This document shows, in pieces, positions 1-16,116 of a DNA stretch of 64,000 nucleotides (position 1 is its first letter; every line of letters starts with the position of its first letter). A program made the translations under genes and the position numbers. The notes under the pieces are model-generated. The model did no database searches and had not been told where the DNA came from. It worked only from the letters and a program-made list of their open reading frames with translations. The stretch covers positions 101,877 to 165,876 of the forward strand of contig CBDCBP010000007.1 in NCBI GenBank assembly GCA_965214315.1, given 5' to 3'. The stretch comes from Puia sp. Lineage in GTDB: Bacteria > Bacteroidota > Bacteroidia > Chitinophagales > Chitinophagaceae.

Positions 1-3000
1 CACCATCTTCCCAACTGGGGATCAAGCGTTCTTAATTGGGTTTCGTAAACTTCTAATCCTGATCCATCAGCGAATTCTTTGTTCTGCAATTCCGAACCTT
101 TGTTATACCGATACTTATTCTCTGCATATTGCGTCTTGATGGCTTTGTCCGAAATTCCTGCCATCGTCAGTCCGAATGGATAATAATGGTTTTCCTCTAT
201 CAACGGACTATTGTAGTGTAGAATACTAAGATTATCAAAGAACACGGGCCACCCCTTTGAGATATTGCTCAGGTAAATATACAAATATCCGCTCTTTAGA
301 ACGGTGATTGTTTGCCCAAGCGGCGACTGAAGGCCGGTGCCGTTTGGTCCGGCAGTCTTTACCTGTAGGGCGCCGTTTTGGAGCGATCCAGTCACGGGGT
401 TGAACTGATTGTCCAGCGATACCCAATTGAGATAAGCTTGCGGCCTGGAGGTCAGCGAACCGGTATCGTTGGAGGTTACCGATGTCAGGGCGGCCTGAAT
501 AGCGCTTGAACTCGGTCCGCTGAGTATCGTCGTGCCTTCCGAGGCAATCGGCGACAGTGTCGCCAGGCCCGAAACCAGCGAACTCACCAGATTTTGGGCC
601 GTCAAAGGCGAGGTGGGAGTGGACGGTATGGGGTTGTAGTAATAATACGTCCCCATCGTGATCCTGTCTCCTGCCATGACCTTGAGAATAATCGCCGGTC
701 CCATTTTCGGCCCGTTGCCATCGAGTTTAATGACGCTATCGTTTATCACCGGGCCATTGGGTGGCGCCGGGAACCCGCCCGAAATGCCAGTGACCGAAGC
801 CGCCGCGTAGCTAACGGAATCGACATTGTAGAAAAGGGCGTTTTCCGTGGCCCGGTATTGCGGTTCCATGGTGCACATGTACTGTGCCGTATCTTTTTCT
901 TGGCTCAGCATGACGCGCTCATCACCCAAGTGATCTTTCTCTGCAAAATCATATTCATAGCCATAGGCAGTATCGCCGGCCAGGTGTTTATGGTACGCCC
1001 AACGCGCCCTGCCTTCTTCGGTACCGACAAACTGAAGGCTGTCCAGTCCGTTCAACCCTATGTAAGGTGCCACTTTTTGCACATATTGCAACCCGCCCAA
1101 ATAAAGCGTGGTCGTCCATTGATAAGTAGGTGTATAAGTGGTGACCTGTTTCCAAATTTTATTGCCTGTCGCATCATATGCATAAGTAACAATCCCAGAG
1201 ACCCCCTTTGCTACCAAGACTGGCAAATTCATGTAATTGTAAAGAATCCCAGTTAACCCCTTATTGGCATCGAGTGTGAGATTTCCGTTCCCGTCGTAGG
1301 CATAGTCTGTACTTCCCTTCGTTGACAGCTTGTAATGAAAATCTCCCAATGTAGAGGCGGAATCGTTGGCACCGTCAGCAACGCTCAATAGCTTATTGCT
1401 ACCAACCTGATAAGTATAGGTGAGCTGGTCAATGGCACCCGTCGGGCTTCCAACTTTAAAGCCTTTTTGGGTCATGGCCATTATGTTGCCATTCGCATCG
1501 TAACTGAGGCCATTGCTCGAGAAATCCATTTTTGTCGCGCCCCAGCTTCCGCCATTAAGATTATCCGAATAGGCCGCACCCAACAATCTACTGGAATTAT
1601 CATACGTGAAGTCATATTTTCGATTGACGCCATCGCTCAAACTTTTCCAGACTGTCCCAGCAATGTTGCCGTTGTATAGGGGTGAATAGCTCGTTCCGGT
1701 CGCGACGCTGGTGAGATTGTCGTATCCCAGCTCCATGCCGAAGTAATGGTTGGTAGTACCACCGACATAGTTCTTGTTGATGCCTGTCACCCAACCACGA
1801 ATATTATAATCGTAGATCAAACTGTCGAGCGCTACACCTGTCGCCGGATCCTTGCCCAGGTTCTTTGTCCGGAGTTGACTCAATTCGTCGTACCGCATGC
1901 TGTCTATGATCTGATCAGCCGCGGCGCCATCGATGTTTTTGTAAATACTCGTCAACCGGAAGGCCGCGTCGTAATTGTTCTTCGTTAAAACCTGGTGCAC
2001 TTGACCTTGGTTCGTCGCATTCTGCTGGCCCAATAAAGACCTCAAAATCTTTCCGCTGAAATTGTATTGTGTCGTTAATGTATCTATCCCGTTGGAGTAA
2101 TTAGTGCTCCTTGTTTGTATCAGCCGGCCGCGATCGTCGTAGAAATTCTCCGTGTAAAGGAATTGGGAAGACGGCGAGGTGGTGATCACATCGCTGACCG
2201 TGCCCGTTACCATACCGCGGGTGATGGGATGCGCCGTCAGCGCCACTGCATATACTGGCCCGGTGCCGTACGAGGTGATGAAATAGTTACCATTGCTTGT
2301 CTTATTGGTGGCCATTACCGCAGGTAGACCACTCGCCGGACTAATGCCCGAGTAATCATCGTAAAATGTTTTGGTCAACAACTGATTTGTATAAGAAGCC
2401 CAATTCGGGTATTCGCCGCCGAGCATGGCTTGCGTCTCATGATATGGTTGGTTATTATAATTGGTCGGATCGGTAATGGTCCCCGTAGAATCGGGCCGAT
2501 TAAGTCCATCGTAAACACTGACAAGCCATTGCTGTTGAGCGCGCATATTTGAATCCTGTGACATGACCAACCGATTGCGCGTATCATAGACCATGTGTAC
2601 TTCGCCGGCCCCGGGAACCTTCTTGATGATCACACGTCTGCGATAATCATATTCATATCGAAAACAAAGCTCATTGGCAATGGCCTGGGAGATTGTCCAG
2701 GTTCCAGTTACATTGATCAGTTCAACTGCCCGCGGTGAGATCACAAATCGAAGATTGCGCATGTCATCGTACACATAGTAGGTGCAAAGCCATCCAACGT
2801 GTGCCGAGCCGGGGGAGGGGGCCGATTGCACTTTTTTAAGTACCGTTTGCTCATCCATATCTTTATATTCTATAACCTGGTGACCTGATTCGTCTGTGGT
2901 GACATTTTTATAAAGCATATAAGGAACGTAGATAGAAGTGCTGGATGGGATACTACCTATGCCAGGAGTAATTGTCCAAATCCTGACGCTATCCGATGCC

Positions 3001-4646
3001 GTGCTCACTTGGTATTGTTTCGTTACCCCCCTACCGGATCCATTCCAACTCAAGCCAGGCGACATGGCACTAACGACCCGATTGAGTGGCGAAGGCTCGC
3101 AATTAACCTGCCCATAATAATACTGTTCTCCCGGAAATTGACCACTATTGAAACTATATTGATCGGCTACCGCAGTATTCTTGTAATTGCCGTCATTGGT
3201 CGATGCCGCATAAGGCAGGAACTTATTTGTCTCCCGACCAAACCCGTCATATTGGATGAATGACACCATATCGTTCATCTTGGGGGTTTGCTGCATAGCG
3301 ACGGTTTGCATGGGTCTTCCGAGCCCGTCAACATACTGCGTCGTTTGTGAGACATCATAGCGATTAGTAAGTGCTGCCGCAGTGGTTGAATCGGGAACAC
3401 CAGGTTTCAATATATCCCTTGTACGTACAAAACTGATGTCCGGGGAACCTGTTACAATGGCAACGCTTGCGACATTGGAGTAGGCTGTGACCCCGTTTGA
3501 AGTAACCATCAGCCGATACCAGCTGTTGGCCGAAAGAAAACCAGGCGAATAGGAAAGGGAAGTCGCGCCACCAATGTTGGTAGGAAAGTTAATTCCATCT
3601 GTTGAACTTTGCCATTGGTAAACATACGCGTTGTTACCGCCCGTTGCCTGACTGCAATCCAATCCGCCCGGATTACCTCCGGAAGCAATATTGATCGAGG
3701 CAGGCGTAATCAGCCCGGCATTGAGCTTTGGATACACATTTACCACTGCCGAGTTGCTATACGCGGTGACCCCATTGCTCGTAACTGCGACCCGGTAATA
3801 AGTAGTTGATGTTAACATCCCGGGAATATAAGTCATGACCGCACAAGGGATATTTGACCACGTGCTATTATCTGGTGAACTTTGCCACTGATATTTATAA
3901 CTGTATGTGCCATTGGTCACACTGACGCTAGACAACGAAGCAGGTATTGTATTATAGTTTATGTTTTGCACACCCGGAGTTACACTTCCCCCATTTACGG
4001 GTAAAATCGGGTTGGGCGGATTTAAGACCACGGAGGCTACGGGAGTGTAGCCGGAATTACTACCGGTAGTTTCTGTCGAAAACCGCTTGTAATACATCGT
4101 TTGTGTGGCGCCGCTCGAGAAGGTCAGATTTTGAGCCGTTGCACCGTTCAAATTCATGAAATTGATATTGTCCGGACTTTCCTGCCATTGGTAAACGTCA
4201 TTAGGTGTAGTGCATGTACCCCCAGCAGGAGCCGAGCAATTGAGCGTGGCAGGTGTGGTGCCATAATTGATAGTCTGCGTTTGACCTGAAGTGAAACTTC
4301 CTGGGGAGAATGCAGGAGTAATCGTTGATGTCAATACTGCATAGCCGGCCGGAGAGTTGAGGGTGATCGAGCCATTTGTAGTCCAGGTAACCAGGATACC
4401 CACGCTGCCTGGTCCGCTGTGCGTGCCGCTCGTACCCCCCGTAGAAAGTGTGCCGCCAGATATTGTGTAAGAAAAATTAGCTGTACCAGAATAATATGCG
4501 TATAAAGTATACGAGTATTGCGTGCCGGCTAACACACATGTAGGGCCACCAATGCTAGCTTGTGAATACCCTTTGTTGGTTGTGGACAGTATTAACGCCA
4601 ATGTTACTGCTACGACAAGTCTGGGGATATAGATAATTTTTTGCAT
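1..4646 (-). CDS. DUF6443-domain / RHS-repeat-associated core protein (polymorphic toxin-like), partial: the C-terminus runs off the window
   Basis: I translated this by hand because it is not in the ORF track (no stop inside the window). ATG at 4646 gives [29 protein letters not shown] (Sec signal), then Ig-like YQWQxSxD repeats, then a DUF6443-like [23 protein letters not shown] segment. The RHS core reads PQAYLNW...[10 protein letters not shown]...[16 protein letters not shown]...[17 protein letters not shown]...LDPQLGRW. The ATGs at 4646 and 164 share one frame; the middle was only spot-checked for continuity. Confidence 0.9.
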
Positions 4647-4671
4647 GTCTTAAAATTATTTGTGACCGGCA

Positions 4672-7600
4672 CTAGTATTCCATTCCAGGCAGTGATTGAA
4701 AGTGATACTGAAACGTCTTGACGATGTTACCGTCTTGGTCTTTAATCCACTTTAGCCTGCCAATGCTGTCATAGAAATAATAAGTGATCCGGTTCGCTAC
4801 GTCACTCTCGCTCGTGATGCCGATCAGGGGTGAGTACGTGTAACTGACCATTTGTGCTGTTGAGGGGTAAAGTCTAACCTCATCGATGCTTCCCGTTCCT
4901 GAAACAATTACACTCCCGGTATTTTTAACCGTATGCTCAAAATAAGTCCATCCATTGATGGTCTTTCCCTGGGTTACCGCCGTGCTGCCGGTAACCGTAT
5001 ATACGCTCTCCGTTTTACTCCAATACGATACCACATAAGTGGTAGCTGTTTTCAGCCCCCCAATGCTTATATTATTGGAGGCAGACAAGCCAAATACATT
5101 GCTACCGGTTGGAGTGGTATTGTCTGCTGCCACTGCTGAGCTGTTGTACACCCATCTGCCATTCGCAGCGGTCTCAAATGAGGAAAAGGCTACATCGACG
5201 GAATCGGCATTGGTAACCTGCGCCATGAGTTCATTATAATTCTCATCCCATATGTAGCTTTTATCTCCCTGCAAAGTATGCAAGGTCCAGATCATGTTGT
5301 TAGCTGAATAGTCGCCAGACGTATAAAGCACGTAATGCGGATCGATCGCTACCGACCAAGAGGTCCCCGGGATAAGATACCAGGGAACAAATTGCGTCCT
5401 GAGGGTTAGGGGCTGAGCGGTTTCCATATTATATACTTGGAGCGGCAAGGCATTTTGATATACGTTAAAACGGCTGCTGATAACCGTAGAATCTCCGGCG
5501 ACATCCCTGTGTAAGACAGTCTGCTCAATAGGCAGATCAAGTAAATGCTGGTTAAACATCTGGTTCATCTGCGTGGCGAGGACTCCGGAGGGAGCGCCGG
5601 ACTGCGCGGCGAGCTCGGCCGACATTCTTGTATATTGAATTGTCTGTGTGCTATCTGAATTATACGATATCTCGAACATCGGCTGGTAATAGGGATTGTA
5701 TTGATAAGCGGTTTTCTTCTTTATAAAATTATTCCCGCTATACGTGGTTTCCACCACGCTATCTTTTAAGGTATGATAAGACTTGGCCGGTGATATGAAT
5801 AAATAAACCGGTCGGTTACCACCCGTCAGCGAGCCGATATTTGGTGTTAAGCAACTTCCCGAGTAGTTAAATCCGCCGGCTCTATTTTGCACTGCCCTGA
5901 TATCATAAAAACCATTCGTATAATTGGCCAGGTGATAGTAGTAGTTCACGGACTTGATGAGGTTGTTCAGGCTGTCATAATATTGCTCCTGAAAAAGTTT
6001 TCCTTCCAAATTTGCTGAAGGAGTGGGGGGTAGATCTTTATTGGCAGGATCAAGATAAGTAGAATAGGGCTGTGGATTCCCATTAACATTATAACCACTT
6101 GGATATGCTGGAGGGTCAACGTCAAATCCGAGCCCACCAGAATAATTTGACGATGGGGTAGCGAGATTAAAAGCCTTCACTAAATAGCCATTTGATTGAC
6201 CCGTTGGACTTTGCTGCGAGATCGTTATCTCCGCATATCCGATCAGTATTTCATTAAAGTTGACCGCACCAGAGGACGAATATTTAAGAATCGCTCCTCC
6301 GTTGGAGCCTCCGGTGCAAGTTGACAATTCCGCTTGATCAGTATAATATTCGATCGCGCCCATGTATTTGCCACTTGAATAGGTATAGTTAGTGGAGCCT
6401 ACCAAACTTCCTGAAACATAATTATTGATTGTTTTTACCCTCACCCCTCCGCCGATAACTGTGTATCCGGCGACCGCGTTGGATTGATGGGGCTCATATA
6501 CAAACGAGGTGCTGCCACCGGTAGGGTACACGACGCTCGTCAAGATCATGGCCTGCACTTGAATAGGGTCGCAATCCCTGCTTACGCCTAAATTGCTTGC
6601 GCTCAAATAAGTCGATGGTATGGCACTTCCCACCCCGCCGGTTCCGGAAACCGGGATCAAATGCGTAAAAGTGTAGCCGCCGCTGACATTGCCGGCGGCA
6701 TTTAAGTATCCCCAATGGTCCTGTGAATACGAATATTTGTCCGGCACGTTACTATTGTAAGTAAACCGGTAGGGCGGCTGATATGAATTGAGGTTGATAT
6801 TGACTGAATCCAGCCTAAGCCTTGTGTTTGAACAGGCCAGATAGCCAGTGGTGGTTAGTGGGGTAGGTAGGGTATACGAAAGTGTCCCCAGATAGGACGC
6901 CCAGGGATTGTAACTGCTCTGAAAATAGCTGTAATTAAAAGTCGAAGTCTTTTTAATGATCCCTGTCAATTTGTCTAGAACTGTTATTTGAGTCAGTTCT
7001 CTGCTGCCCGGACCGTAGAGGTCAGTCCGGGTGGACAATGTAAAATTCACAGCTGCATCTGAGCTCTCAACCCGGGTAAGATAATAAGGCGATTGAATAG
7101 CTACATTTTGGTTGTAGTCCGTGGATAGCACAGCCGGCGCAGGCGGGTTTGCCGTCCAGCTGACTGAGCCCTGCATGGTAAAGGCAGGAACCGAGTACCC
7201 ATAGTTAGCATAGGTAAACTGGAGATAATCCCCACTGGGATGTACGGCTTTTGTAAGCAGCCATGCCGAGGTGCTAGTTGGCGGAACCACGTTGCCATTC
7301 GGCAAAGTATTGGTGGTTGTCTCCGTCTGGTTAAAGTAGTAAGTCACCCCGAGATTGTCAATGATCGTCCATGTCGTGATATTGTTATGCGCATCAAGCG
7401 TATAGTTGATCTTAAACAGACTTTGTTCGCCGATAAACTTTATGCTACCCGAGATCTTATCGACATAATAGACCACCGACTGACCCATAAAGTTCGCCCT
7501 GAAAATATCTGGTTCTCCCGTTCCAAATTCAGTCATTTCCTCTACCGCCGCAAGATTATCATAGGTAGTATCTGAAGCGCAGGATGTCCCTGATTCGCAC

Positions 7601-7814
7601 ATTGTCGAAGGCGTCAATACAGCATTTTCACTTCCAGAACCGACCCGATTGAAAATACGTCGCATCCCACCGGCAAGATTTGTAGGACTTGATAGTCCCT
7701 GCGTCGACCCGTTAAAATCGGCACAGCCTCTAACCTCCACTGTGATCCGGCCGCCTGGATTAAGGTCCCAACCAAGCCCGACCCAAGACGCCTCTTGGTT
7801 GACTTTGATTCCCG
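4672..7814 (-). pseudogene. YD/RHS-repeat partner protein of the DUF6443 gene, 5'-truncated at the IS3 end
   Basis: The 1022-aa ORF (4672-7740) extends upstream in frame as GIKVNQEASWVGLGWDLNPGGRITVEVRG, a conserved motif near the N-terminus of this Bacteroidota family, and is cut at the IS end (7815). The C-terminus SYTYSPLIGITSESD...YYFYDSIGRLKWIKDQDGNIVK is typical of the family. The start codon and signal peptide are missing. Confidence 0.8.
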
Positions 7815-7845
7815 TGTATCGACCCCCAATAAACTGGACAGTTTT

Positions 7846-8742
7846 CTAAAGGTAGTTTAGTAGTTTTTCATTTTCAAAAGGGACCGGATTAATATTTTTG
7901 AACACGTGGTTCGGGGTTTGCCTATTTAAGGCGCCATGCCGTCTTTTTTCGTTGTACCACTCGTAGTAGCGATCGAGCACCATCTGGGCATGGTAGATCG
8001 AGTCGAACTCGTATCGGTCGATCACCTCTCGTTGGAGGTTAGAATGGAAGGCTTCTATGTAGGCGTTGTCCTCTGGTGTGCCGACGTGAGAGAACTCTTG
8101 AAGGATTCCTTTGTCTTTCAGATAAACCCGAACGGCCTGGGCAATGAACTGCGAACCGTTATCATTGCGGATGGACATGCCCTCGGCTTTGTATTCCAGC
8201 AGCATTAGCGATAGTAGCACCAGGACGTCACCTTTGCGGATATGGCTTCTCAGTTGGTAGATCAGCACTTTTCTGCTGTAGATGTCGATCACCGTCAGCA
8301 GGAGCACGTTTCTGCTGGTTCCGTGAATATGGACGTACTTGATATCCATTGCCAGGTACTGCAAGGGTCTTTCCGGCTTCAGGCTTCGGAATCGAATAAA
8401 ATTTCGTTTAAACGGCAGGGGCCGAATCCGGGCGCCGTATAGCAATCTTGCTTCTTTCATCAGCCGGTACACTTTTTTGTGATTAATGATCCATCCCAGC
8501 TCCCGGAGCTCGGCTGTCATGTTCTTGTACCCATAACAACAGAATTCCTGTCGCAGCACTTGCTCTACTTGCATAACGACGATTTTGTTTTCTATCATCT
8601 CGCCATGAACCGTAACGGTGTGGGTGCTGGGTTTTATGCCTTTACGGGCGCCAGACTGCTTGTAATAAAAGCTGCTGGGCGCCAGATCGGCCCATTCCAG
8701 CAGGCTTCGAACTGGTATACTCCGAAGCGCATAAGCCCTCAC
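7846..8742 (-). CDS. IS3-family transposase OrfB (DDE/rve integrase core)
   Basis: Motifs INHKKVYRLM, LAMDIKYV, IRNDNGSQF, PEDNAYIEAFHSNLQRE and WYNEKRRHGAL are present. It lies in the -1 frame relative to orfA. Confidence 0.95.
   Translation of the reverse strand: MRAYALRSIPVRSLLEWADLAPSSFYYKQSGARKGIKPSTHTVTVHGEMIENKIVVMQVEQVLRQEFCCYGYKNMTAELRELGWIINHKKVYRLMKEARLLYGARIRPLPFKRNFIRFRSLKPERPLQYLAMDIKYVHIHGTSRNVLLLTVIDIYSRKVLIYQLRSHIRKGDVLVLLSLMLLEYKAEGMSIRNDNGSQFIAQAVRVYLKDKGILQEFSHVGTPEDNAYIEAFHSNLQREVIDRYEFDSIYHAQMVLDRYYEWYNEKRRHGALNRQTPNHVFKNINPVPFENEKLLNYL
7847..7878 (-). promoter_or_regulatory. Outward-facing Bacteroidota sigma-A-like promoter at the IS end
   Basis: The minus strand has TTTG (7878-7875), a 20-nt spacer and TACCTTTA (7854-7847). 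The consensus is TTTG-N19-21-TAnnTTTG, so this has one mismatch. Confidence 0.5.
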
Positions 8743-9059
8743 GAGCCCTTGAGCCTCCGCTCGTAGGCCTCGTTTTTTTTTAATAGCTCCGTCTTGAACT
8801 CTAACTCCAGTGCCTGATTGCCGATGATCTTTTTAAGCCGGGCGTTCTCCTCTTGCAAGGCCTTCAGTTCCGGATCTACCTTCCGATATTGCGGCTGCAG
8901 CTTGGCTGGGCCACCCTGATTAAACTGGTTCTTCCACCGCATGAACACAGAATGGGACAAATTGTGCTTACGAAGTGTCTGAGTGACACCTTGATGATCA
9001 GCCTCTTGGATGATTTGAAGCTTTTGCTCGACAGAAAAGCTTCTGTACTTCTTTGCCAT
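8739..9059 (-). CDS. IS3-family transposase OrfA (HTH)
   Basis: MAKKYRSFSVEQKLQIIQE...RWKNQF...ELKALQEENARLKKII matches the HTH plus leucine-zipper pattern of OrfA. Confidence 0.93.
   Translation of the reverse strand: MAKKYRSFSVEQKLQIIQEADHQGVTQTLRKHNLSHSVFMRWKNQFNQGGPAKLQPQYRKVDPELKALQEENARLKKIIGNQALELEFKTELLKKNEAYERRLKGS
8773..8781 (-). other. Candidate -1 programmed frameshift site (A9 run) joining OrfA and OrfB
   Basis: TTA AAA AAA AAC lies near the end of orfA. A -1 slip reads KKKRGLRAEAQGLVRAYALR straight into OrfB without a stop. Confidence 0.75.
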
Positions 9060-9326
9060 AATACCCTAAATTTAAATGACTAAATTGATTTGATCAATTA
9101 GTCCAGTCTTTTAGGGGGTCAGTACAAGACACCTGTTTTACTATCCTCAATTAATAATAAGGCTACACAGGAATTGGCAGTAAATTCTGTTAAATGAGGG
9201 ATTTTGTTATTGAAGATTGGTAAATGGGTGACTATTTGTGCTGTGACGGTACAATTTTTCGTTTGAGCCACGAGACAGGCCAGTTCCGTGAATCTAACAA
9301 GGAAATTGGTCGCGGTGTTTAGATGA

Positions 9327-10292
9327 CTAATTTTGTTGTATATTGATTGAGTCAAATTGGAAATCCCCAATTAATTCCCAGTTGTTGGCGCGATTTGAAT
9401 GCTGTCGATATACGGGCGGATAATATTTAAATACTTTTATCTCCAAGCCGTCGCCTAGGCCGGTTCCTTTATAATCTTGAATGCAAATGAATAATTCACC
9501 AATTCCATCTCCGTCAATATCATATTGACCCACCTGAAAAAGCACATTTTCTTTAAACCGAAATTCCTCTTTGACATCGTGCCTTCTGCCAGTTTTAAAA
9601 TTAGGAAATATCCGAACTCTAGCATTTTCAAAGTGAATATAAAAAGCTATACCAATTTGTTCAAAAAACGTTCGCAATAAAATTGGAGCGACGTCTAAGC
9701 TCGCCGGATAAATCAATGGCAATTCGGCTCCATCTGAGGTTTCCTGGTATGTCCAGACAGCGGAATAGCTTAGCCCTAGTACAAATCCGTCCTGGGTAGG
9801 CACGGACGCTCTTTTAATGTAGGCCGACCGTGACTTATTTAGACCAAGTTGCCGCGTAATCAAATTGAAGGTTGCACTAATCAAGGCTTGCTCCTCGTTT
9901 TGCAAATAACTATTGTGCGCAATTAAATTGCGACACCTACTCATATCGTCCATTTTACCCAAAATCCTAGTCTGAGATGGAAATTCACTGGCAAAAAAAT
10001 CCCAATTGTGAGTTAGAATGCCACACAAATCCTTGAAATCCAAATAGTATAAAATTGAATTTCCCCGTAGAGACGCCCACTTGTGTTTCATCTCGTCTTC
10101 TTTCCTGATATCTGCATTTTTCTGACAGCTAGCGGGAATTCGAATATTTTCTCTGGAAGGATGTTCTTCAATATATAGCCGCAGCAGGTTCTCAAGGCAA
10201 TAGAGATATTGATACGCCATTGACATACTGATAGCCTTCCTTATTAAGTCCTCCGGAAGCAAAGAAAGTGAATCTTCATTTAGTAGATTCAT
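9327..10292 (-). CDS. Swt1-like HEPN ribonuclease domain fused to an uncharacterised beta-rich C-terminal domain
   Basis: AYQYLYCLENLLRLYIE, LYYLDFKDL..I..NWDFF...FP and the intact Rx4H motif RNLIAH (9915-9932) match Swt1-type HEPN. The C-terminal half contains YDIDGDGIGELF. Confidence 0.75.
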   Translation of the reverse strand: MNLLNEDSLSLLPEDLIRKAISMSMAYQYLYCLENLLRLYIEEHPSRENIRIPASCQKNADIRKEDEMKHKWASLRGNSILYYLDFKDLCGILTHNWDFFASEFPSQTRILGKMDDMSRCRNLIAHNSYLQNEEQALISATFNLITRQLGLNKSRSAYIKRASVPTQDGFVLGLSYSAVWTYQETSDGAELPLIYPASLDVAPILLRTFFEQIGIAFYIHFENARVRIFPNFKTGRRHDVKEEFRFKENVLFQVGQYDIDGDGIGELFICIQDYKGTGLGDGLEIKVFKYYPPVYRQHSNRANNWELIGDFQFDSINIQQN

Positions 10293-10337
10293 AATGAATA
10301 TTTATCGACCGAGTCAAGAGCCAGTTCACACTTAAAT

Positions 10338-11271
10338 TTAGCTTTTTAAAATACCATCCAGTACGTCCTGATCCGTTAGACCTCTGGATTGTTCGTTTTC
10401 GTGAAAATATATATTTTCTTCTTTCTTAACTATTGCCTCCCATTTATTTTGGGGAAATAAAGGTCCAACTTTAACTGTATAATTGCACAATTTCATAGGC
10501 GAATACCGGGCCCCAAAAATTAGCAGGAGGTTGAATTCATAACCAAATTGATGAAGATGATCCCTATTGAGAATAATATCAAAAGAATGATGAATGTAAT
10601 TGCCGTAGTAAATCACATCAGCAATTTGCCTCCGTATATAATCTGATCCCGTCTCAATACTTCCATTCATCTGGTTGAAGGGGATATTTACATCCAAAAT
10701 CAACCCCTGTGAGGTGATTGCTCTAAAATGAACATTCAAATCATTCTGAAATCTAGAAAGGTTTCTGAAAATTATCGAGCAGCTTAAGCGGCTATGCTTA
10801 ATAGTAGAACTTTCCTGGCGATATCCCTCAATCTTCAAGTACGCCTCCAATTTAGGGAATTTTACTTTTTTAAATAGAGCCTCTATATAGTGATGCGGCG
10901 CCGCCGCAGTTTGTCCATCCATACGCGTATGGTATATATTTTCAAATTGATGCGGCGCATATTCACTGGTAGGAACTTCCAAAAGGTACCAGTATTTGCC
11001 TTGATCTTCTAATCGGTTAAACAGTATGCCTCTAGGGCTAGGTATTATGCGATTTGCTATTTTTGATATAAATGAGTCTTTCTCATACCTCTCAGCAACA
11101 GAAGTCAATGCCCCTTGGTAGACTTTTTCTTTCGCCCCCGGCAACTTTATGCCTTCTGGTGCGCCCCATACCAACAAGCCGCCTTCAGAGTTAAGAAATC
11201 CACAGATCGCTCGAAGCACCTTTTTCTTCTTCTGCCTTTGCGCCTGTGCCTAACGAACTAGGATAAGATTT
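10338..11271 (-). pseudogene. Schlafen/AlbA_2-domain protein, N-terminally truncated with an apparent frameshift
   Basis: AICGFLNSEGGLLVWGAP...HQFENIYHTRMDGQTAAAPHHYIEALF is AlbA_2-like. The expected upstream KSY segment (KSYPSSLGTGAKAEEEK) sits in another frame at about 11221-11271. An alternative GTG start at 11219 gives 293 aa. Confidence 0.65.
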
Positions 11272-11642
11272 GTGATGTAAGTCTCGTTTTTTGTCCGTCC
11301 TTCTAATAATATTATAGATTGGTATTCTTCTTTTTGGAGAATATCAGTCTGGCTCTCGAAAAAATTGAACATATTTTCTATGGCCCCTTGATTAATCCTT
11401 ATATATTTATATCCAGGGCCAGTGGTTGCACGTGCATTTGTCGAAAAATCGGTTCTATAATAGACGTAACTCGAAGGAAATTTTAGTGCTGCTCCCTTTG
11501 TTTTTAGATGCAGATTAGCCAAATTGAATAATTCGTCATATACTTCCTGCAAACGGTCGTCACTGTAATCGTAAATTTCATCAGATTTGACAATGTTTTT
11601 GGCTACCATCTCAGCACCGTTTTCCAAATACTCGGCATTCAT
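11250..11642 (-). CDS. Hypothetical protein, probably the N-terminal fragment of a zinc-peptidase-like (U49/Lit-like) family
   Basis: This 130-aa ORF has an AT-rich start context. YVYYRTDFSTNARA...YIRINQGAIENMFNFF resembles the NA-x-A...IxIxxG segment that precedes HExxH in such proteins, but no HExxH is present and the ORF runs into AlbA_2 sequence. Confidence 0.4.
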   Translation of the reverse strand: MNAEYLENGAEMVAKNIVKSDEIYDYSDDRLQEVYDELFNLANLHLKTKGAALKFPSSYVYYRTDFSTNARATTGPGYKYIRINQGAIENMFNFFESQTDILQKEEYQSIILLEGRTKNETYITNLILVR

Positions 11643-11841
11643 AATATATAGTTTTGAGTTAATGCCAATCGATCTTATTCAGACAACTCACCACACGCTA
11701 TGGTCACTACTTTTGAGATTAGCAACCCAATTCCCACCACAAAGAGCACAACTAAAGGCAAATAAAAACACAAAAATCAACAACTTGGCACCGTGAAAAC
11801 ACCTGATTTTCAGCTTAAAACGCGCGAATTCGGCGGAGAGC

Positions 11842-13224
11842 CTACTTCCCAATACAAAACTTCGAAAAAATATAATCCAACCGCTCCTCCGAAGTAACTT
11901 CCCCCGTAATCTCCCCCAACCAATGCAAACAAACCCGAATATCCAACGACAAAAGATCCCCCGGCAATGACTCATCAAGCCCCCGCCGGATTGTCTCTAA
12001 CGCCGTCGCCACCTGCTGCAAAGCATGAAAGTGCCGCGCATTCGTAACGATCGTCCCTTCACCCGCAGCACCAGCCGAATTACCCGCCAGCACCTGGTCA
12101 ACGAGTCGCTGCCGAAGCACCTCAACACTTCGCGAATCCCGCGCCGAGATCAACAACTCTTGCGGAAACCGGGACCGCACCCAGGCCTCATCCAATCCAT
12201 CTATCTTATTGCCGACGAACAAAAACGGCTTGCCCCGGGCGACCAGTTGTTCCCGCGCAACAGCAACCGAAGCCAGCCTATCGTTCACGTCGAAAAGATA
12301 CACGATGATATCTGCCTGCTCCATTTTCTCCAAACTCTTGCCAACGCCTATTTGCTCTATCACATCGGAAGTATGTTCCCTGATCCCGGCAGTATCGATC
12401 AGCCGAAACAAAATACCGCCAATATTCAATATCTCCTCAATGGTATCCCGGGTTGTCCCGGCAATCTCTGAGACGATCGCACGCTCGTCATTCAGCAGCG
12501 TATTCAAAAGCGTGGATTTACCCGCATTAGGCTTGCCCACGATGGCTACCGATACGCCATTGCGGATCACATTCCCTAGCCGAAAAGAAGCCAACAACGC
12601 CGATGTCGTCGCAGTAGCTTCATTGATCAAAGCATGGAATTGCGTCCGATCGGCAAATTCCACATCCTCCTGGGAAAAATCAAGCTCAAGTTCGATCAGC
12701 GCGGAAAAACTCAAAAGCCTTTCCCGCAGTTCGCGCAAAGCCCGGGAAAAACCACCACGAATAGTATGAAGCGCAGTATGCGCGGAAGCAGCAGTATGCG
12801 AACCAATAAGGTCAGCCACGGCTTCAGCCTGGGCGAGGTCTAATTTGCCTTTCAAAAACGCACGCTGGGTAAACTCGCCCGCCCGCGCCAACCGGGTGCC
12901 CCGTTGAAGAAGCGCCCAGATAACACGTTCTTGCACATAAGGGCTGCCATGACAGGATATCTCGATGACGTCTTCCCCCGTATAACTGCGGGGCGCACGA
13001 AACAGAGACACGACAACTTCATCGAGTTCATCATCCCCATCCTTCAGTAATCCCACATGAAGGGTGTGACTCGCCTGAACCAAAAGATCTTTCCCCGGAA
13101 AAAGTCCACTAACAACCCCAAAAGCCAAGGGGCCGCTGACCCTGATCACGCCAATGGCGCCAATTCCCGGCGGTGTGGCAAGCGCCACGATCGTATCTTC
13201 CCACCCTGCTAATTTTCCTACCAT
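11842..13224 (-). CDS. mnmE: tRNA modification GTPase MnmE (TrmE)
   Basis: DTIVALATPPG, GEFTQRAFLKGKLDLAQAEAV, the P-loop GKPNAGKSTLLN, DTAGIR and the C-terminal FSKFCIGK are all present. Confidence 0.99.
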   Translation of the reverse strand: MVGKLAGWEDTIVALATPPGIGAIGVIRVSGPLAFGVVSGLFPGKDLLVQASHTLHVGLLKDGDDELDEVVVSLFRAPRSYTGEDVIEISCHGSPYVQERVIWALLQRGTRLARAGEFTQRAFLKGKLDLAQAEAVADLIGSHTAASAHTALHTIRGGFSRALRELRERLLSFSALIELELDFSQEDVEFADRTQFHALINEATATTSALLASFRLGNVIRNGVSVAIVGKPNAGKSTLLNTLLNDERAIVSEIAGTTRDTIEEILNIGGILFRLIDTAGIREHTSDVIEQIGVGKSLEKMEQADIIVYLFDVNDRLASVAVAREQLVARGKPFLFVGNKIDGLDEAWVRSRFPQELLISARDSRSVEVLRQRLVDQVLAGNSAGAAGEGTIVTNARHFHALQQVATALETIRRGLDESLPGDLLSLDIRVCLHWLGEITGEVTSEERLDYIFSKFCIGK

Positions 13225-13228
13225 GCCG

Positions 13229-13280
13229 CAAAGATAGGCCCCCCGGAAGCCATCTTCAAAATCGATTCACTGTAACTTTG
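13229..13280. promoter_or_regulatory. Divergent promoter pair (two -7 boxes)
   Basis: TATCTTTG on the minus strand (13236-13229) lies just before the mnmE ATG. TAACTTTG on the plus strand (13273-13280) lies before the ORF at 13297. Confidence 0.65.
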
Positions 13281-13296
13281 TCCAAAAGAAGCAAGC

Positions 13297-13605
13297 ATGG
13301 AACTGCAGCAAGCCAGGACCCAATTGACCGCCATCCGCGACAACCTGCCACCGGATTATTCGATCAGCGGCGCCCGGAAATTGATGTCGGCTTTCGAAAA
13401 TTATAAGCAGATCTCACGAGGATTAGGCCGTGACCTGGGCCGTCAAAAGCTAGGCATCCGCTCCGAATTCGACGATATCGAACAGAACATCAAATCCGCT
13501 ATAATAGGAACACCAAAGAAAGAAGCCGAATCCAGGTTCAGCCAGGCCAAAAAGCATATAACGGAGGACATCAACAAAATTATCGCAGCGGCTCTACAAG
13601 GATAG
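13297..13605 (+). CDS. Hypothetical 102-aa helical protein
   Basis: It fills the gap between mnmE and the next gene, has its own -7 box and looks amphipathic-helical. Confidence 0.7.
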   Translation: MELQQARTQLTAIRDNLPPDYSISGARKLMSAFENYKQISRGLGRDLGRQKLGIRSEFDDIEQNIKSAIIGTPKKEAESRFSQAKKHITEDINKIIAAALQG

Positions 13606-13612
13606 TCAGCAG

Positions 13613-15199
13613 CTATCTTATTAGTATCACAAGTCCTTTCCGCTCAACCAAGCGGCCTGTATAGTCAATGCCCGCGGCTACCCACACAAACGTTCCCGTT
13701 GGCAACGTATGCCCGCTCAAAGTTCCATCCCACCCGAATGAGGAATTAGTGGTAGTAAAAACCTGCTGCCCAAAACGGTCGTACACCGTAAAATACTTGA
13801 ATTGTGATATACCGATCGGAATAGCACGAAGCAGATCATTGTGTCCGTCATTGTTCGGCGTGAAGGCGTTGGGAACGAAGATATCCGTCTGCGAAGTAAA
13901 GGCCTTGATGGTCATGCTGTCTATCCCCTCGCAACCATCCGCCGCGGTGGCGGTCACGGTATAGGTGATGCTCTCATTTACGACAGCTGTTGGATCAGCG
14001 GTATTGGCATTGCTCAGTCCCGACGCCGGCGTCCAGACATATTGCGTAAAGCCGACGCCATCCACGTCGACGGCATTCAGTGGCACACGCTGCCCAACCA
14101 GTACACTTGTATCATCCCCCGCGGACACTTTTAAGGGTGGCACGACATTTACGATTACCGTTGCCGGCGACAACGACGTACAGCCATTCGCCCCGACAAC
14201 CGTCAATTGGTAGGTCACGCTGGAATGGGGGCTGACCATGATCGGATCCGGCTGTTCGGCATTACTAAGATAAGTGGAAGGCGACCATTGGTAGGTGGCG
14301 CCCCCGCTCCCCTGCAGTTCGACGGACTTCCCATAACAGGTCCCCACAGGCGACACCGCCGAGGCGACCGGCGCTGGTAGCACGGTGACGGTCACAGTAC
14401 CCGAGGCAGGACAGACACCCAGCGTGTCGGACAAATTGTAGGTAGTGGTGGAAGCAGGCGAAGCCACCGGGTCGAGGATAGTCGTATCGCTCAACCCCAT
14501 AGCGGGGGTCCAGGCAAAAATGGTAGCATTCGAGACCGGCTTCAGGTTTACGCTCGTGCCTTGGCAGATGGTCGTGTCATGGGGCATCGTTAACGAAAGA
14601 TCGATGCTCAGCGGAACGATGCCCGAGACCGAATCAATGCAATGGTAGACGTCCTGGGCGTAGACTTTATAAGGGCCGGCAGGCACACCGCTAAAAGATG
14701 GACTGCTGCCATACGCGCCACTGCCCAAAGCATAAGTAAGTGGCGGCTGGCCTCCGTAAATATAGGTAACCTGTATCGTGCCTTTACTCGCCTCGCAAAT
14801 TGAGGCAGTCGCACTGGCTGTTATCGAAGGACCCGAAGACGTATAGAGTGGAGCTGTCTTGGTTGCAGTTTGGTTCATCTGATCCGTAATGGTAAGTTGG
14901 TAGACACCTGCCGGAAGGCCAGTAAAGACCCCCGTGGAATCAGGGACGGCCCCAGTGGCCACACTAAAGATGGTGTAGATCAAAGGTAGAAAAACCGGAC
15001 CCGGACCCGTGGCAGCTGAAAAGCTAATTGCCCCATTAGCATTGCCGCAACTGCCCTGAGTGGTGTTGACATTTACTATCGCAAGATTCTGCCCATACCC
15101 GATCCCCGCGCTCAGCACTAGCAGTAGCACCACAAAATACGGCCGGATCGCTCTCAGGGACCGTTTTGATAGGATAGACGAAAAAGGGCGTTGCGACAT
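13613..15199 (-). CDS. Gliding-motility-associated C-terminal domain (T9SS type B CTD, CHU_C) protein with SprB/PKD-like repeats
   Basis: It has an N-terminal signal and repeated WTPAxGLS...PxAxP units. The C-terminus reads IFVPNAFTPNNDGHND...VYDRFGQQVF...GWDG...GTFVWV...KGLVILIR. Confidence 0.92.
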   Translation of the reverse strand: MSQRPFSSILSKRSLRAIRPYFVVLLLVLSAGIGYGQNLAIVNVNTTQGSCGNANGAISFSAATGPGPVFLPLIYTIFSVATGAVPDSTGVFTGLPAGVYQLTITDQMNQTATKTAPLYTSSGPSITASATASICEASKGTIQVTYIYGGQPPLTYALGSGAYGSSPSFSGVPAGPYKVYAQDVYHCIDSVSGIVPLSIDLSLTMPHDTTICQGTSVNLKPVSNATIFAWTPAMGLSDTTILDPVASPASTTTYNLSDTLGVCPASGTVTVTVLPAPVASAVSPVGTCYGKSVELQGSGGATYQWSPSTYLSNAEQPDPIMVSPHSSVTYQLTVVGANGCTSLSPATVIVNVVPPLKVSAGDDTSVLVGQRVPLNAVDVDGVGFTQYVWTPASGLSNANTADPTAVVNESITYTVTATAADGCEGIDSMTIKAFTSQTDIFVPNAFTPNNDGHNDLLRAIPIGISQFKYFTVYDRFGQQVFTTTNSSFGWDGTLSGHTLPTGTFVWVAAGIDYTGRLVERKGLVILIR

Positions 15200-15300
15200 G
15201 TAGGATATATCTGCGCTAAAATAGCACTAATCCCCCGTATACGCAACGCCCTTCCCCGATTCACCCATCCCCCAGGCATCCAACTCGCAGCCGCCCCACT

Positions 15301-16116
15301 CTAATCCGCAATCCTAAAGATCACCGGTTGTCGCTTATAACTCTTTACATTCCTCCCATTCTGCACCGCGGGTATCCATTTGCCACTCTTCCTGATCACC
15401 CGAACCGCCTCCTCCCGCAATCCATCTTGATCCGGCCCACTGAGCGCCTCCACATCACTCACATCCCCCTCTTTGTCGACAATAAAACGCACCATGACCG
15501 TTCCCTGAATATTGTCATTCTGAGCCGCATCGGGATACCGAAAATTCTTGTTTAGGAATCGCGCCCAGGCCGGCAAACCACCCGGATAGCTCGACTCGAT
15601 CTGAACTGTCGTATAAGGCGCATCATCCTCCTCCTTCGGCTTCTCCACCACGCCTCCTACGTTCGCCCCCAAAGGCGCAGGGGGCGGCACCACTCCATTA
15701 TCTTCCCCACCCGGAGTATTCACCGTCCCGATTTTCACCTTTTCCAGGTCATCGACAACAGGCGGCTTTTCGTCGTCAGGCGGATCCTTCACCAAAACCG
15801 GCGGCATAAAGATCTTCATCGCAACGGGCGGCGGGGCCTTCACAACAGGCGGCGGTAGCGGCGGCGCAACCGGCGGCGGATCAGGAACACTCACCAATGT
15901 CACCGAATCCGGCATCAGCGGCTTAACACCATGCGGACCCCGTCCACGCACAAACCCAAAACAAAACAACACCAACACAAACCCGCCGGTCGCCATCAAC
16001 GCTTTGCCCATTCGGTTATTATATGTCTTACGCAAAGTATACGCACCATATTCCTTATTGCGCCCATCGAACAAAATATCGAGGACATCAGCAGTCAAGA
16101 TCTTATTTGTTTCCAT
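15301..16116 (-). CDS. tonB: Energy transducer TonB (paralogue 2)
   Basis: The N-terminus is ILTADVLDILFDGRNKEYGAY, followed by a TM helix, a Pro-rich linker and a TonB_C domain (YPDAAQ...IQGTVMVRFIVDKEG...WIPAVQNGRNV). Confidence 0.93.
   Translation of the reverse strand: METNKILTADVLDILFDGRNKEYGAYTLRKTYNNRMGKALMATGGFVLVLFCFGFVRGRGPHGVKPLMPDSVTLVSVPDPPPVAPPLPPPVVKAPPPVAMKIFMPPVLVKDPPDDEKPPVVDDLEKVKIGTVNTPGGEDNGVVPPPAPLGANVGGVVEKPKEEDDAPYTTVQIESSYPGGLPAWARFLNKNFRYPDAAQNDNIQGTVMVRFIVDKEGDVSDVEALSGPDQDGLREEAVRVIRKSGKWIPAVQNGRNVKSYKRQPVIFRIAD

What the first reader, a model, noticed from the sequence alone, without database searches (positions are those of the whole stretch)
9327..11642. Candidate anti-phage cassette at the mnmE 3' hotspot: peptidase-like + Schlafen/AlbA_2 + HEPN fusion
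Seen: three co-oriented AT-rich ORFs lie immediately downstream of mnmE and next to an IS, with AlbA_2 and HEPN Rx4H motifs. Established: the mnmE/trmE 3' end is a recurrent genomic-island integration site; HEPN and Schlafen/AlbA_2 domains are RNase effectors in abortive-infection and toxin systems; Lit/U49 peptidases mediate phage exclusion. Inference: this is a defence cassette, now partly eroded. I do not recognise the combination as a named system, but the three genes may also be independent stand-alone defence genes.
Basis: partly seen in the sequence, partly recalled or inferred. Interest (0 to 1): 0.7.

Follow-up and report, generated by a model that had tools for sequence, protein, structure and literature searches.

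The report
Three broken defence genes beside mnmE
The stretch after the mnmE gene holds the damaged remains of three unrelated, stand-alone genes of anti-phage type (a metallopeptidase-like gene, a Schlafen-type RNase and a HEPN RNase), not a working three-gene system, so it is ordinary decay at a gene-insertion hotspot.

Summary
Three co-oriented, AT-rich minus-strand ORFs (11250-11642, 10338-11219, 9327-10292) lie between mnmE (11842-13224) and an IS3-family element (7815-9126). The AlbA_2/Schlafen and Swt1-like HEPN (RNLIAH) calls survive profile searches.

All three are remnants:
- ORF1 is the first ~125 codons of a ~330-aa HExxH metallopeptidase-like family and stops before the HExxH motif.
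- A deletion joins ORF1, at about 11269-11280, to a Schlafen + Ig-like gene. That gene has lost its first ~35-38 codons, including the catalytic Ex4ExK motif, and carries a 2-nt frameshift.
- The HEPN gene keeps its RNase domain but lacks the last ~36 residues that all 14 full-length relatives have.

The three families do not co-occur in 25 HEPN, about 20 peptidase and 4 Schlafen loci. The one exception is a distant AlbA_2 gene next to a peptidase homologue.

Intact relatives of the Schlafen and HEPN genes sit as single genes in defence islands or mobile elements, next to Gabija, PD-T7-1, Old, IetAS or PDC-M11. Four of the seven distinct loci lie directly after mnmE.

Verdict: a decayed patch of independent defence-type genes at a real mnmE 3' insertion hotspot, not a new cassette. 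Interest is low.

The parts
11842..13224 (-). mnmE (tRNA modification GTPase), intact. It is the anchor gene of the insertion hotspot.
   Evidence: 460 aa with full-length matches to TrmE_N, MnmE_helical and MMR_HSR1. It is 69-79% identical to mnmE in L001, L004, L047 and L049.
11700..11841 (-). Conserved non-coding att-like element right after the mnmE stop codon. It ends in the imperfect hairpin GGTTGCTA..TAGTGACC. Variable island DNA begins just beyond it.
   Evidence: It is 80-86% identical in L049, L047 and L004, although the DNA beyond it differs completely. It is present twice in L004, flanking a 1.3-kb insert. No Rfam hit and no fold signal. Metagenome contigs diverge from the window at 11843 and 11881.
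11250..11642 (-). ORF1: the N-terminal ~125 codons (11268-11642) of a ~330-aa HExxH metallopeptidase-like gene. The last 5-6 codons and the TAG stop are read out of frame from the Schlafen gene fragment. The catalytic HExxH motif is absent.
   Evidence: phmmer against 1.84 billion proteins gave 35 hits. Full-length members are 322-336 aa, and ORF1 aligns only to their residues 1-125. The alignment shows conserved NAxA, YHExxHLxQ, E..DAD and HPHPxxR motifs, and the window sequence stops before HExxH. A family HMM matches positions 1-123 only.
11269..11280 (.). Deletion junction that fuses codon ~125 of the peptidase gene to codon ~36-39 of the Schlafen gene.
   Evidence: Peptidase homology ends at ...TYIT (aca at 11271). 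Schlafen homology starts at (L)..KSYPSSLGTG in another frame (11280-11221). The missing parts are found nowhere else in the window.
11221..11230 (-). Frameshift inside the Schlafen gene: 2 nt are missing, relative to the closest homologue, in an A-rich run.
   Evidence: DNA alignment with L004. The family HMM aligns positions 35-56 in frame 0 and positions 47/49-346 in the ORF2 frame.
10338..11249 (-). Body of a 5'-truncated prokaryotic Schlafen (AlbA_2) + C-terminal Ig-like beta-sandwich gene. ORF2 as listed spans 10338-11219. The Ex4ExK catalytic motif is lost.
   Evidence: PF04326 at 27.4 bits from profile position 21. It is 75% identical to P0032. The 87 homologues are mostly 340-355 aa, and all but two of them carry PF04326. 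E32, E37 and K39 are invariant in 67 relatives and align with the SLFN13 'ESASIEFK' active-site stretch. The AF2 model of P0032 has pLDDT 94; its N-domain hits SLFN11/13/14/5 and DIP2311, and its C-domain hits ApaG, ASF1 and integrin-type sandwiches.
9327..10292 (-). ORF3: a Swt1-like HEPN RNase domain (residues ~7-148, Rx4H at 9915-9932) followed by a beta-rich C-terminal domain. The gene is truncated at its 3' end. Homology ends at 9342, and the last ~36 residues of the family are missing.
   Evidence: PADLOC PDC-M34B at 3.8e-27 and PF18731 at 24.3 bits. It is 71% and 66% identical to P0002 and P0003 (355 aa). All 14 full-length relatives extend 34-38 residues further, with near-invariant R333, F349 and G353. 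The HMM matches positions 1-319 only. The AF2 model of P0003 shows that the lost part corresponds to the last four beta strands.
9127..9341 (.). Orphan 215-bp filler between the truncated HEPN gene and the IS. Origin unknown.
   Evidence: No similarity to any fetched locus or to the rest of the window.
7815..9126 (-). IS3-family insertion sequence, intact and multicopy. No target-site duplication is seen.
   Evidence: orfA HTH_Tnp_1 and orfB rve/rve_3. The imperfect terminal inverted repeats are TGTACTGACCCCC..ACTGGAC and TGTATCGACCCCC..ACTGGAC. Depth is raised, and contigs from other copies break off at 7815 and 9127. The flanking triplets CCG and AGA differ.

Best explanation
The 2.7 kb between mnmE and the IS3-family element is a decayed patch of a variable genomic island at an mnmE 3' insertion site. 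It holds the remains of three unrelated, single-gene, defence-type genes, each of which works alone in other genomes.

1. HExxH metallopeptidase-like gene (family ~330 aa, uncharacterised). It is cut after codon ~125, before its zinc-binding motif.
2. Prokaryotic Schlafen gene. It has an AlbA_2 RNase domain with an Ex4ExK motif, fused to an Ig-like beta-sandwich. This matches the architecture of the characterised pSlfn5 class, in which the Ig-like domain senses a phage protein and switches on tRNA cleavage. One deletion removed the 3' two-thirds of the peptidase gene, whatever lay between the two genes, and the first ~35-38 codons of the Schlafen gene, including the catalytic glutamates. A 2-nt frameshift follows.
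3. Swt1-like HEPN RNase fused to a beta-rich C-terminal domain, presumed to be a sensor or regulator. Its RNase motif is intact, but the last ~36 residues (four strands of the C-terminal domain) are gone.

What is shown: the truncations, the junction, the frameshift, the lack of co-occurrence, and the defence-island context of intact relatives.

What is inferred: that the intact genes act as phage-triggered RNases or a protease, that the window copies are non-functional, and that IS activity or illegitimate recombination caused the deletions.
For: Truncations and junction.

The same sequence appears in independently assembled contigs of 2-3 runs.

Catalytic motifs:
- Ex4ExK is invariant in 67 relatives and aligns with the SLFN13 active-site stretch. 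PMC13056530 gives Ex4(E/D)xK as the catalytic motif, with E15A/D20A abolishing RorSlfn5 toxicity.
- HExxH is nearly invariant in the peptidase family and absent from ORF1.

No co-occurrence:
- 25 HEPN loci contain no Schlafen-family or peptidase-family gene.
- 17 peptidase loci contain no HEPN gene and only one distant AlbA_2 gene. Three more peptidase loci contain neither.
- Four Schlafen loci contain neither of the other two.
- All-against-all clustering of neighbouring genes found no conserved partner for the HEPN or peptidase families.

Defence context of intact relatives:
- GajA + GajB + PD-T7-1 next to P0072.
- PDC-M11A next to P0032.
- An Old/AriA-like gene next to P0040, and an Old gene near P0003.
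- IetA + IetS next to P0005, on a CTnDOT-like conjugative element.

Hotspot: cargo differs directly after mnmE in L001-3, L004, L047 and L049. Integrases are present in L001 and L049. The att-like element is conserved, and duplicated in L004.
Against: - ORF3 keeps an intact start, an intact HEPN domain and no internal stops. It could still be expressed, and I have no expression or activity data.
- The peptidase fragment lies upstream of, and is co-oriented with, the Schlafen fragment. One metagenomic locus (L046) has the same order with a distant AlbA_2 gene, so an ancestral functional pairing is not strictly excluded.
- Only seven distinct loci of close Schlafen and HEPN relatives were examined, so no statistical enrichment was computed.
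- Read depth is low (about 4x) and comes from contigs, not raw reads.
- The absence of a target-site duplication rests on 3-bp flanks only.
Confidence: 0.8

Rival explanations
1. The three ORFs are, or recently were, one co-functioning anti-phage cassette (peptidase + Schlafen + HEPN).
For: The ORFs are co-oriented and tightly spaced, share a low GC content, and all three families are of defence type. One locus (L046) has a peptidase homologue followed by an AlbA_2 gene.
Against: No co-occurrence in about 50 loci of the three families, and no conserved neighbour. Intact relatives occur singly at the same mnmE site. All three window copies are truncated. ORF1 and ORF2 match nothing in PADLOC, so no PDC-M34A partner is present.
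Confidence: 0.04
2. ORF1 and ORF2 are dead, but the HEPN gene (ORF3) is still a working stand-alone toxin or defence RNase despite its shortened C-terminal domain.
For: The start codon is intact, 316 of 355 homologous codons carry no stop, and the Rx4H motif and all invariant HEPN residues are present. The gene was called as a gene in the source assembly (P0001).
Against: All 14 full-length relatives keep the missing 34-38 residues, including near-invariant R333, F349 and G353. In the AF2 model these form the last four strands of the beta domain, so the domain is unlikely to fold. There is no expression data.
Confidence: 0.15
3. The apparent truncations are assembly or sequencing artefacts of a low-coverage metagenome bin, and the real genome has intact genes.
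For: Depth is only about 4x, and the evidence comes from assembled contigs. One lesion is a 2-nt gap in an A-rich run, a typical place for sequencing errors.
Against: Contigs of two runs agree with the window with zero differences across both junctions, the frameshift and the stop. A second sample covers the peptidase/Schlafen junction. The two large lesions are deletions of hundreds of bases, not homopolymer errors. The missing parts are nowhere else in the window.
Confidence: 0.02

Closest known systems
Prokaryotic Schlafen defence proteins, class pSlfn5 (Slfn nuclease + Ig-like sensor; RorSlfn5), Perez Taboada et al., Nat Microbiol 2026 (PMC13056530)
   Same: The family of ORF2 has an N-terminal AlbA_2/Schlafen domain with an invariant Ex4ExK motif and a C-terminal beta-sandwich. 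The sandwich's weak structural neighbours include integrin ectodomains, as reported for RorSlfn5. Members are single genes of about 350 aa located in defence islands.
   Different: Sequence relatedness to RorSlfn5 was not tested because I had no sequence for it. The family is from Bacteroidota, not Enterobacterales, and its trigger is unknown. The window copy lacks the catalytic motif and the start codon, so it is a pseudogene.
PADLOC candidate PDC-M34 (component B) and single-protein HEPN defences such as HEC-08 (Payne et al., bioRxiv 10.1101/2024.01.29.577857); Pfam PF18731 Swt1-like HEPN
   Same: The HEPN domain of ORF3 matches the PDC-M34B models (3.8e-27) and carries the Rx4H motif. The equivalent histidine of the Rx4-6H motif is required for HEC-08 defence. 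It has a single-polypeptide 'HEPN + extra domain' layout.
   Different: PDC-M34 is a multi-gene, untested candidate, and no A component is present here. Only the ~140-aa HEPN domain matches. The ~200-aa beta-rich C-terminal domain has no Pfam or PDB match. The short (~284 aa) relatives place the HEPN domain at the C-terminus instead. The window copy is truncated at its 3' end.
HExxH regulatory/defence metallopeptidases: CapP (CBASS regulator) and ImmA/IrrE (M78); M48; Lit (U49)
   Same: The family of ORF1 has a conserved NAxA...HExxH...E..D layout. Eight of 24 members give weak CapP hits (best E = 1.7e-4), and a few give M48 or M78 hits around the HExxH motif. Some members sit next to an RM gene, an integrase or a Bil system.
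   Different: No hit reaches a curated threshold. Lit is touched by 1 of 24 members at E = 0.019. No CapH-like or other conserved partner was found. The family is not in Pfam, NCBIfam or PADLOC. The window copy lacks the HExxH motif altogether.

Membership tests
Prokaryotic Schlafen (pSlfn) defence nucleases | AlbA_2/Schlafen nuclease domain | tested here: met
   PF04326 at 27.4 bits (cut-off 25.3) for ORF2. 85 of the 87 homologues carry PF04326. A profile of the family hits SLFN13/8, SLFN11, SLFN5, SLFN12 and SLFN14 chains in the PDB. Foldseek hits SLFN11, SLFN13, SLFN14 and SLFN5 (7q3z), and DIP2311.
Prokaryotic Schlafen (pSlfn) defence nucleases | Catalytic Ex4(E/D)xK motif present in this copy | tested here: not met
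   The motif E32-x4-E37-x-K39 is invariant in 67 relatives. In the window the first ~35-38 codons are deleted and the next ~17 are out of frame.
Prokaryotic Schlafen class pSlfn5 | C-terminal Ig-like beta-sandwich sensor domain | tested here: inconclusive
   The AF2 model (pLDDT 94) has an all-beta C-terminal half. Its Foldseek neighbours (ApaG, ASF1, arrestin-like proteins, integrin ectodomains) have high probability but low TM-scores. No direct comparison with RorSlfn5 was possible.
Prokaryotic Schlafen (pSlfn) defence nucleases | Located in defence islands | tested here: met
   All four contexts of relatives qualify: GajA + GajB + PD-T7-1 (L051), PDC-M11A (L004), an Old/AriA-like gene plus an integrase (L050), and the mnmE island with an integrase (L049).
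HEPN RNases (Swt1-like clade, PF18731) | Rx4-6H motif in an all-helical domain | tested here: met
   R121-NLIA-H126 is invariant. The AF2 model is helical over residues 8-148. PF18731 scores 24.3 bits, below the 27.5 cut-off, for the window copy, but is precomputed for 16 of the 30 relatives found, mostly the short ones.
PADLOC candidate system PDC-M34 | Both components A and B present | tested here: not met
   The B models match ORF3 residues 7-143 (3.8e-27). ORF1 and ORF2 match no PADLOC model at E <= 1. No conserved neighbour was found in 24 HEPN loci.
Lit (U49) phage-exclusion peptidase | Match to the Lit profile with the HExxH active site | tested here: not met
   One of 24 family members matches, at E = 0.019. 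ORF1 itself has no HExxH motif.
CapP / ImmA-IrrE (M78)-like metallopeptidases | Profile match around HExxH, plus a partner regulator | tested here: inconclusive
   Eight of 24 members match CapP weakly (best E = 1.7e-4), and 2 of 24 match M78. No conserved partner gene was found.
IS3-family insertion sequence | orfA (HTH) + orfB (DDE/rve), terminal inverted repeats starting with TG, multicopy | tested here: met
   No target-site duplication was seen.
mnmE 3' integration hotspot / genomic island | Variable cargo directly after a conserved anchor gene, with integrases and att repeats | tested here: met
   Content differs after mnmE in L001-3, L004, L047, L049 and the window. Integrases are present in L001 and L049. 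A ~130-nt conserved element is duplicated in L004. Strain-variant contigs break at 11843. No integrase and no second repeat remain in the window.

The most novel reading that the evidence does not exclude
The intact relatives of ORF3 may form a new single-gene, phage-triggered RNase defence family. They are about 355 aa, with a Swt1-like HEPN domain and a beta-rich C-terminal domain that matches no structure or Pfam family and carries an invariant DIDxDG..E motif. I found about 15 members, in Chitinophagaceae-like Bacteroidota. The family rides the mnmE att site and CTnDOT-like conjugative elements. A lesser variant of this reading is that the ~330-aa HExxH family of ORF1 is a new stand-alone defence peptidase. 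The window itself would only be a dead witness of either.
Probability: 0.3. Interest if true: 0.45.

Novelty: new member of a known kind. Interest (0 to 1): 0.2.

Why it matters
The locus itself matters little. It shows how defence genes at an insertion hotspot are lost through deletion, frameshift and a neighbouring IS, which is expected turnover.

Three by-products are more useful:
- A Bacteroidota clade of Schlafen + Ig-like proteins, structurally like the recently characterised pSlfn5 sensor-nuclease. It could be tested for new phage triggers.
- A small HEPN + unknown beta-domain family and an unannotated HExxH family. Both are candidates for defence screens.
- A conserved ~130-nt att-like element after mnmE, which marks a usable 'where to look' site for accessory genes in Chitinophagaceae-like genomes.

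Tried and rejected
- ORF1 and ORF2 as one gene with a nonsense mutation or read-through. They share a frame and are separated by one TAG. Rejected: the family HMM shows the Schlafen 5' piece in a different frame and the first ~35 codons absent, and the N-terminus of ORF1 belongs to an unrelated family.
- The IS split the HEPN gene. Rejected: the missing C-terminal coding sequence is on neither side of the IS nor anywhere else in the window, and 215 bp of unrelated DNA lie in between.
- A conserved partner gene for the HEPN or peptidase families. None was found by all-against-all clustering of neighbours.
- The conserved element after mnmE as a non-coding RNA. No Rfam hit even at E <= 1, and fold z-scores of +0.9 and +1.7.
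- tRNA or tmRNA as the integration target. None lies in 1-16000.
- A fold match for the HEPN family model. Nothing was significant in the PDB by Foldseek (best E = 0.36) or by profile search.
- A literature search for 'PDC-M34' found nothing.
- The first metagenome scan, with the broad peptidase alignment, failed for lack of a conserved stretch. It was repeated with a tighter alignment.
- The look-up of P0006 found no record.
Full report
**1. What is there**

On the minus strand, mnmE (11842-13224) is intact. Three co-oriented ORFs follow it:
- ORF1, 11250-11642, 130 aa.
- ORF2, 10338-11219, 293 aa.
- ORF3, 9327-10292, 321 aa.

After ORF3 come 215 bp of unassigned DNA (9127-9341) and then an IS3-family element. 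The element's orfA (HTH_Tnp_1) and orfB (rve) are intact. Its imperfect terminal repeats place the ends at 7815 and 9126. Contigs from other copies of the element break off at exactly these positions, and depth is raised there.

GC content drops to 0.35-0.43 across 9000-11800, against 0.50-0.60 in mnmE and upstream. The observation as written is therefore correct.

**2. Domain calls**

- ORF2 passes the Pfam threshold for SLFN_AlbA_2 (27.4 against 25.3 bits), but only from profile position 21.
- ORF3 matches Swt1-like HEPN just under threshold (24.3 against 27.5 bits). It matches the PADLOC PDC-M34B models strongly over residues 7-143 (3.8e-27).
- The R121-NLIA-H126 motif of ORF3 is invariant among relatives.
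- ORF1 matches nothing in Pfam, NCBIfam, PADLOC or PHROGs.

**3. All three genes are remnants**

*ORF1.* An exhaustive phmmer search found 35 relatives. Full-length members are 322-336 aa, and ORF1 aligns only with their first ~125 residues. The family alignment shows conserved NAxA, YHExxHLxQ, E..DAD and HPHPxxR motifs, which is a zinc-metallopeptidase-like signature. The window sequence stops just before the HExxH motif, and the family HMM matches positions 1-123 only.

*ORF2.* Its 87 homologues are mostly 340-355 aa. An HMM built from them aligns to the ORF2 frame from position 47-49 onward. Positions 35-56 align to a different frame (11280-11221), and positions 1-34 are found nowhere in the window. 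DNA alignment with the closest relative (L004) places a 2-nt gap in an A-rich run at about 11221-11230.

Peptidase homology ends at ...TYIT (about 11271), and Schlafen homology begins within the same dozen bases. One deletion therefore fused codon ~125 of the peptidase gene to codon ~36-39 of the Schlafen gene. The last codons of ORF1 and its TAG stop are out-of-frame Schlafen sequence. That ORF1 and ORF2 share a frame is a coincidence of the deletion plus the frameshift, not evidence of a single gene carrying a nonsense codon.

*ORF3.* It aligns from its start codon with 14 full-length relatives of 347-356 aa. Similarity ends at window 9342. All relatives continue for 34-38 more residues, with near-invariant R333, F349 and G353.

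*Assembly check.* Contigs assembled independently from two public runs match the window without a single difference over 8763-12000 and 9296-12000. A contig from a second sample covers the peptidase/Schlafen junction. These lesions are therefore not an artefact of one assembly, although depth is only about 4x.

**4. What the intact genes are**

*Schlafen family.*
- E32-x4-E37-x-K39 is invariant in 67 members.
- A profile search of the PDB aligns this stretch with 'ESASIEFK' of SLFN13 and with SLFN11. Published work gives Ex4(E/D)xK as the catalytic motif of Schlafen RNases, and E15A/D20A abolishes toxicity of the bacterial protein RorSlfn5 (PMC13056530; SLFN13 E205/E210 in PMC5862951).
- The AF2 model of P0032 (pLDDT 94) has an N-terminal Schlafen-like domain and a C-terminal all-beta sandwich. 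Its weak neighbours include ApaG, ASF1 and integrin ectodomains.
- This is the architecture of the published pSlfn5 class, in which an Ig-like domain senses a phage tail-assembly chaperone and activates tRNA cleavage.
- The window copy has lost the catalytic motif.

*HEPN family.*
- The AF2 model of P0003 (pLDDT 82) has a helical HEPN domain (residues 8-148), a disordered linker and a beta-rich domain (176-355).
- No PDB neighbour is significant.
- The window copy lacks the last four strands of the beta domain.
- By analogy with other HEPN defence proteins (for example HEC-08, whose Rx4-6H histidine is required), I infer a sensor-regulated RNase. This was not tested.

*Peptidase family.*
- There are only weak hints: 8 of 24 members hit CapP (best E = 1.7e-4), 3 hit M48, 2 hit M78 and 1 hits Lit.
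- It is an unannotated HExxH family.

**5. Cassette or independent genes?**

I tested co-occurrence with family HMMs on six-frame translations of every fetched locus.
- 25 HEPN loci from GTDB genomes contain no member of the Schlafen or peptidase families within +/-10 kb.
- 17 peptidase loci from metagenomes contain no HEPN gene. Only one (L046) has a distantly related AlbA_2 gene downstream.
- Three more peptidase loci contain neither.
- Four Schlafen loci and two further HEPN loci contain neither of the other two families.
- All-against-all clustering of neighbours found no conserved partner for the HEPN or the peptidase family.

The three families are thus independent single genes. The window's arrangement is a chance juxtaposition in an island.

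**6. Context of intact relatives**

Four of the seven distinct loci of close Schlafen and HEPN relatives lie directly downstream of mnmE:
- HEPN P0003 (the same Sphingobacteriales 50-39-type locus, recovered as L001-L003 and again as L005), with HTH_17, AHJR-like, RusA, Old, RadC and an integrase.
- HEPN P0002 (L047), with a ParA-like gene and an AbiEii fragment.
- Schlafen P0032 (L004).
- Schlafen P0037 (L049), with an integrase.

PADLOC profiles identify neighbours as follows:
- GajA (2e-157), GajB (6e-175) and PD-T7-1 (1e-125) next to Schlafen P0072.
- PDC-M11A (8e-205) next to P0032.
- An Old/AriA-like gene next to P0040.
- Old (3e-77) near HEPN P0003.
- IetA and IetS (E = 0) next to HEPN P0005, on a CTnDOT-like conjugative element.

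One peptidase homologue sits beside a Bil system, and another beside an MmeI-type RM gene. So the defence-type reading of the Schlafen and HEPN gene families is well supported by context, less so for the peptidase family, whose contexts are mixed. The system reading is not.

**7. The hotspot**

A ~130-140-nt non-coding element immediately after the mnmE stop (window 11700-11841) is 80-86% identical in L049, L047 and L004, although everything beyond it differs. In L004 it occurs twice as a direct repeat around a 1.3-kb insert.

Conservation ends at an imperfect hairpin, GGTTGCTA..TAGTGACC. I found no RNA family and no fold signal. Metagenome contigs from co-occurring strains diverge from the window right at 11843.

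I read this as an att site for site-specific integration with tandem accretion. That is an inference. The window retains no integrase and no second repeat. The IS shows no target-site duplication. This is compatible with, but does not prove, IS-associated deletion of the distal part of the island.

**8. Comparison with known systems, and verdict**

- The Schlafen remnant is a dead member of the known prokaryotic Schlafen defence kind, with pSlfn5-like architecture.
- The HEPN remnant shares its RNase domain with the untested PADLOC candidate PDC-M34B, but has no A partner and a different, unmatched C-terminal domain.
- The peptidase remnant belongs to an unannotated HExxH family and is not demonstrably Lit-like.

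Nothing here is a new system. The locus is ordinary gene decay at an insertion hotspot.

The most interesting open possibility concerns the intact relatives, not this window: the HEPN + beta-domain family could be a new single-gene defence. Interest is 0.2.

Noticed in passing
window 11700-11841 (minus strand); L004 3972-4104 and 5428-5561; L049 6522-6656; L047 6333-6465: A conserved ~130-nt non-coding element lies right after mnmE. It is 80-86% identical across genomes whose downstream cargo differs. In L004 it is duplicated as a direct repeat around a 1.3-kb insert. It ends in the imperfect hairpin GGTTGCTA..TAGTGACC. It is probably an att site. There is no Rfam hit and no RNA fold signal.
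   Followed up: partly
window 7815-9126: The IS3-family element is intact and multicopy in the source metagenome, with raised depth and contigs from other copies breaking at 7815 and 9127. No target-site duplication is visible at this copy (flanks CCG and AGA).
   Followed up: partly
window 3-4649 and 4672-7740 (minus strand): Beyond the IS lie two very large ORFs: one of 1022 aa, and one of at least 1549 aa that runs off the window start. They have YD/RHS-like repeats at their C-terminal ends, which suggests a polymorphic-toxin-type locus. They were not scanned against any library.
   Followed up: no
window 9127-9341: A 215-bp orphan segment between the truncated HEPN gene and the IS has no similarity to any fetched locus or to the rest of the window.
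   Followed up: partly
L046 1-849 and 1485-2402: This is the only locus where a peptidase-family gene is followed, on the same strand, by an AlbA_2 gene (PF04326, 8e-17). That gene is only distantly related to the window's Schlafen family (39 bits). The order matches that of the window's fused fragments. It is probably a coincidence.
   Followed up: partly
L048 2671-6129 and 12362-16493: A HEPN-family homologue (P0005) is cargo of a CTnDOT-like conjugative element (TraJ, TraM, DUF4138), directly after a complete IetA-IetS defence pair and near an integrase.
   Followed up: partly
L051 2912-9041: In a Flavitalea genome, GajA, GajB, a PD-T7-1 homologue and a Schlafen + Ig-like homologue form a contiguous, co-oriented run. 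This is a compact defence island.
   Followed up: partly
L004 2295-3959: The mnmE gene of this relative is called at 554 aa. It aligns to the window's MnmE in two blocks with an extra ~95 codons between residues 342 and 349, which suggests an insertion within mnmE. L001 and L049 also have longer MnmE proteins (499-504 aa).
   Followed up: no
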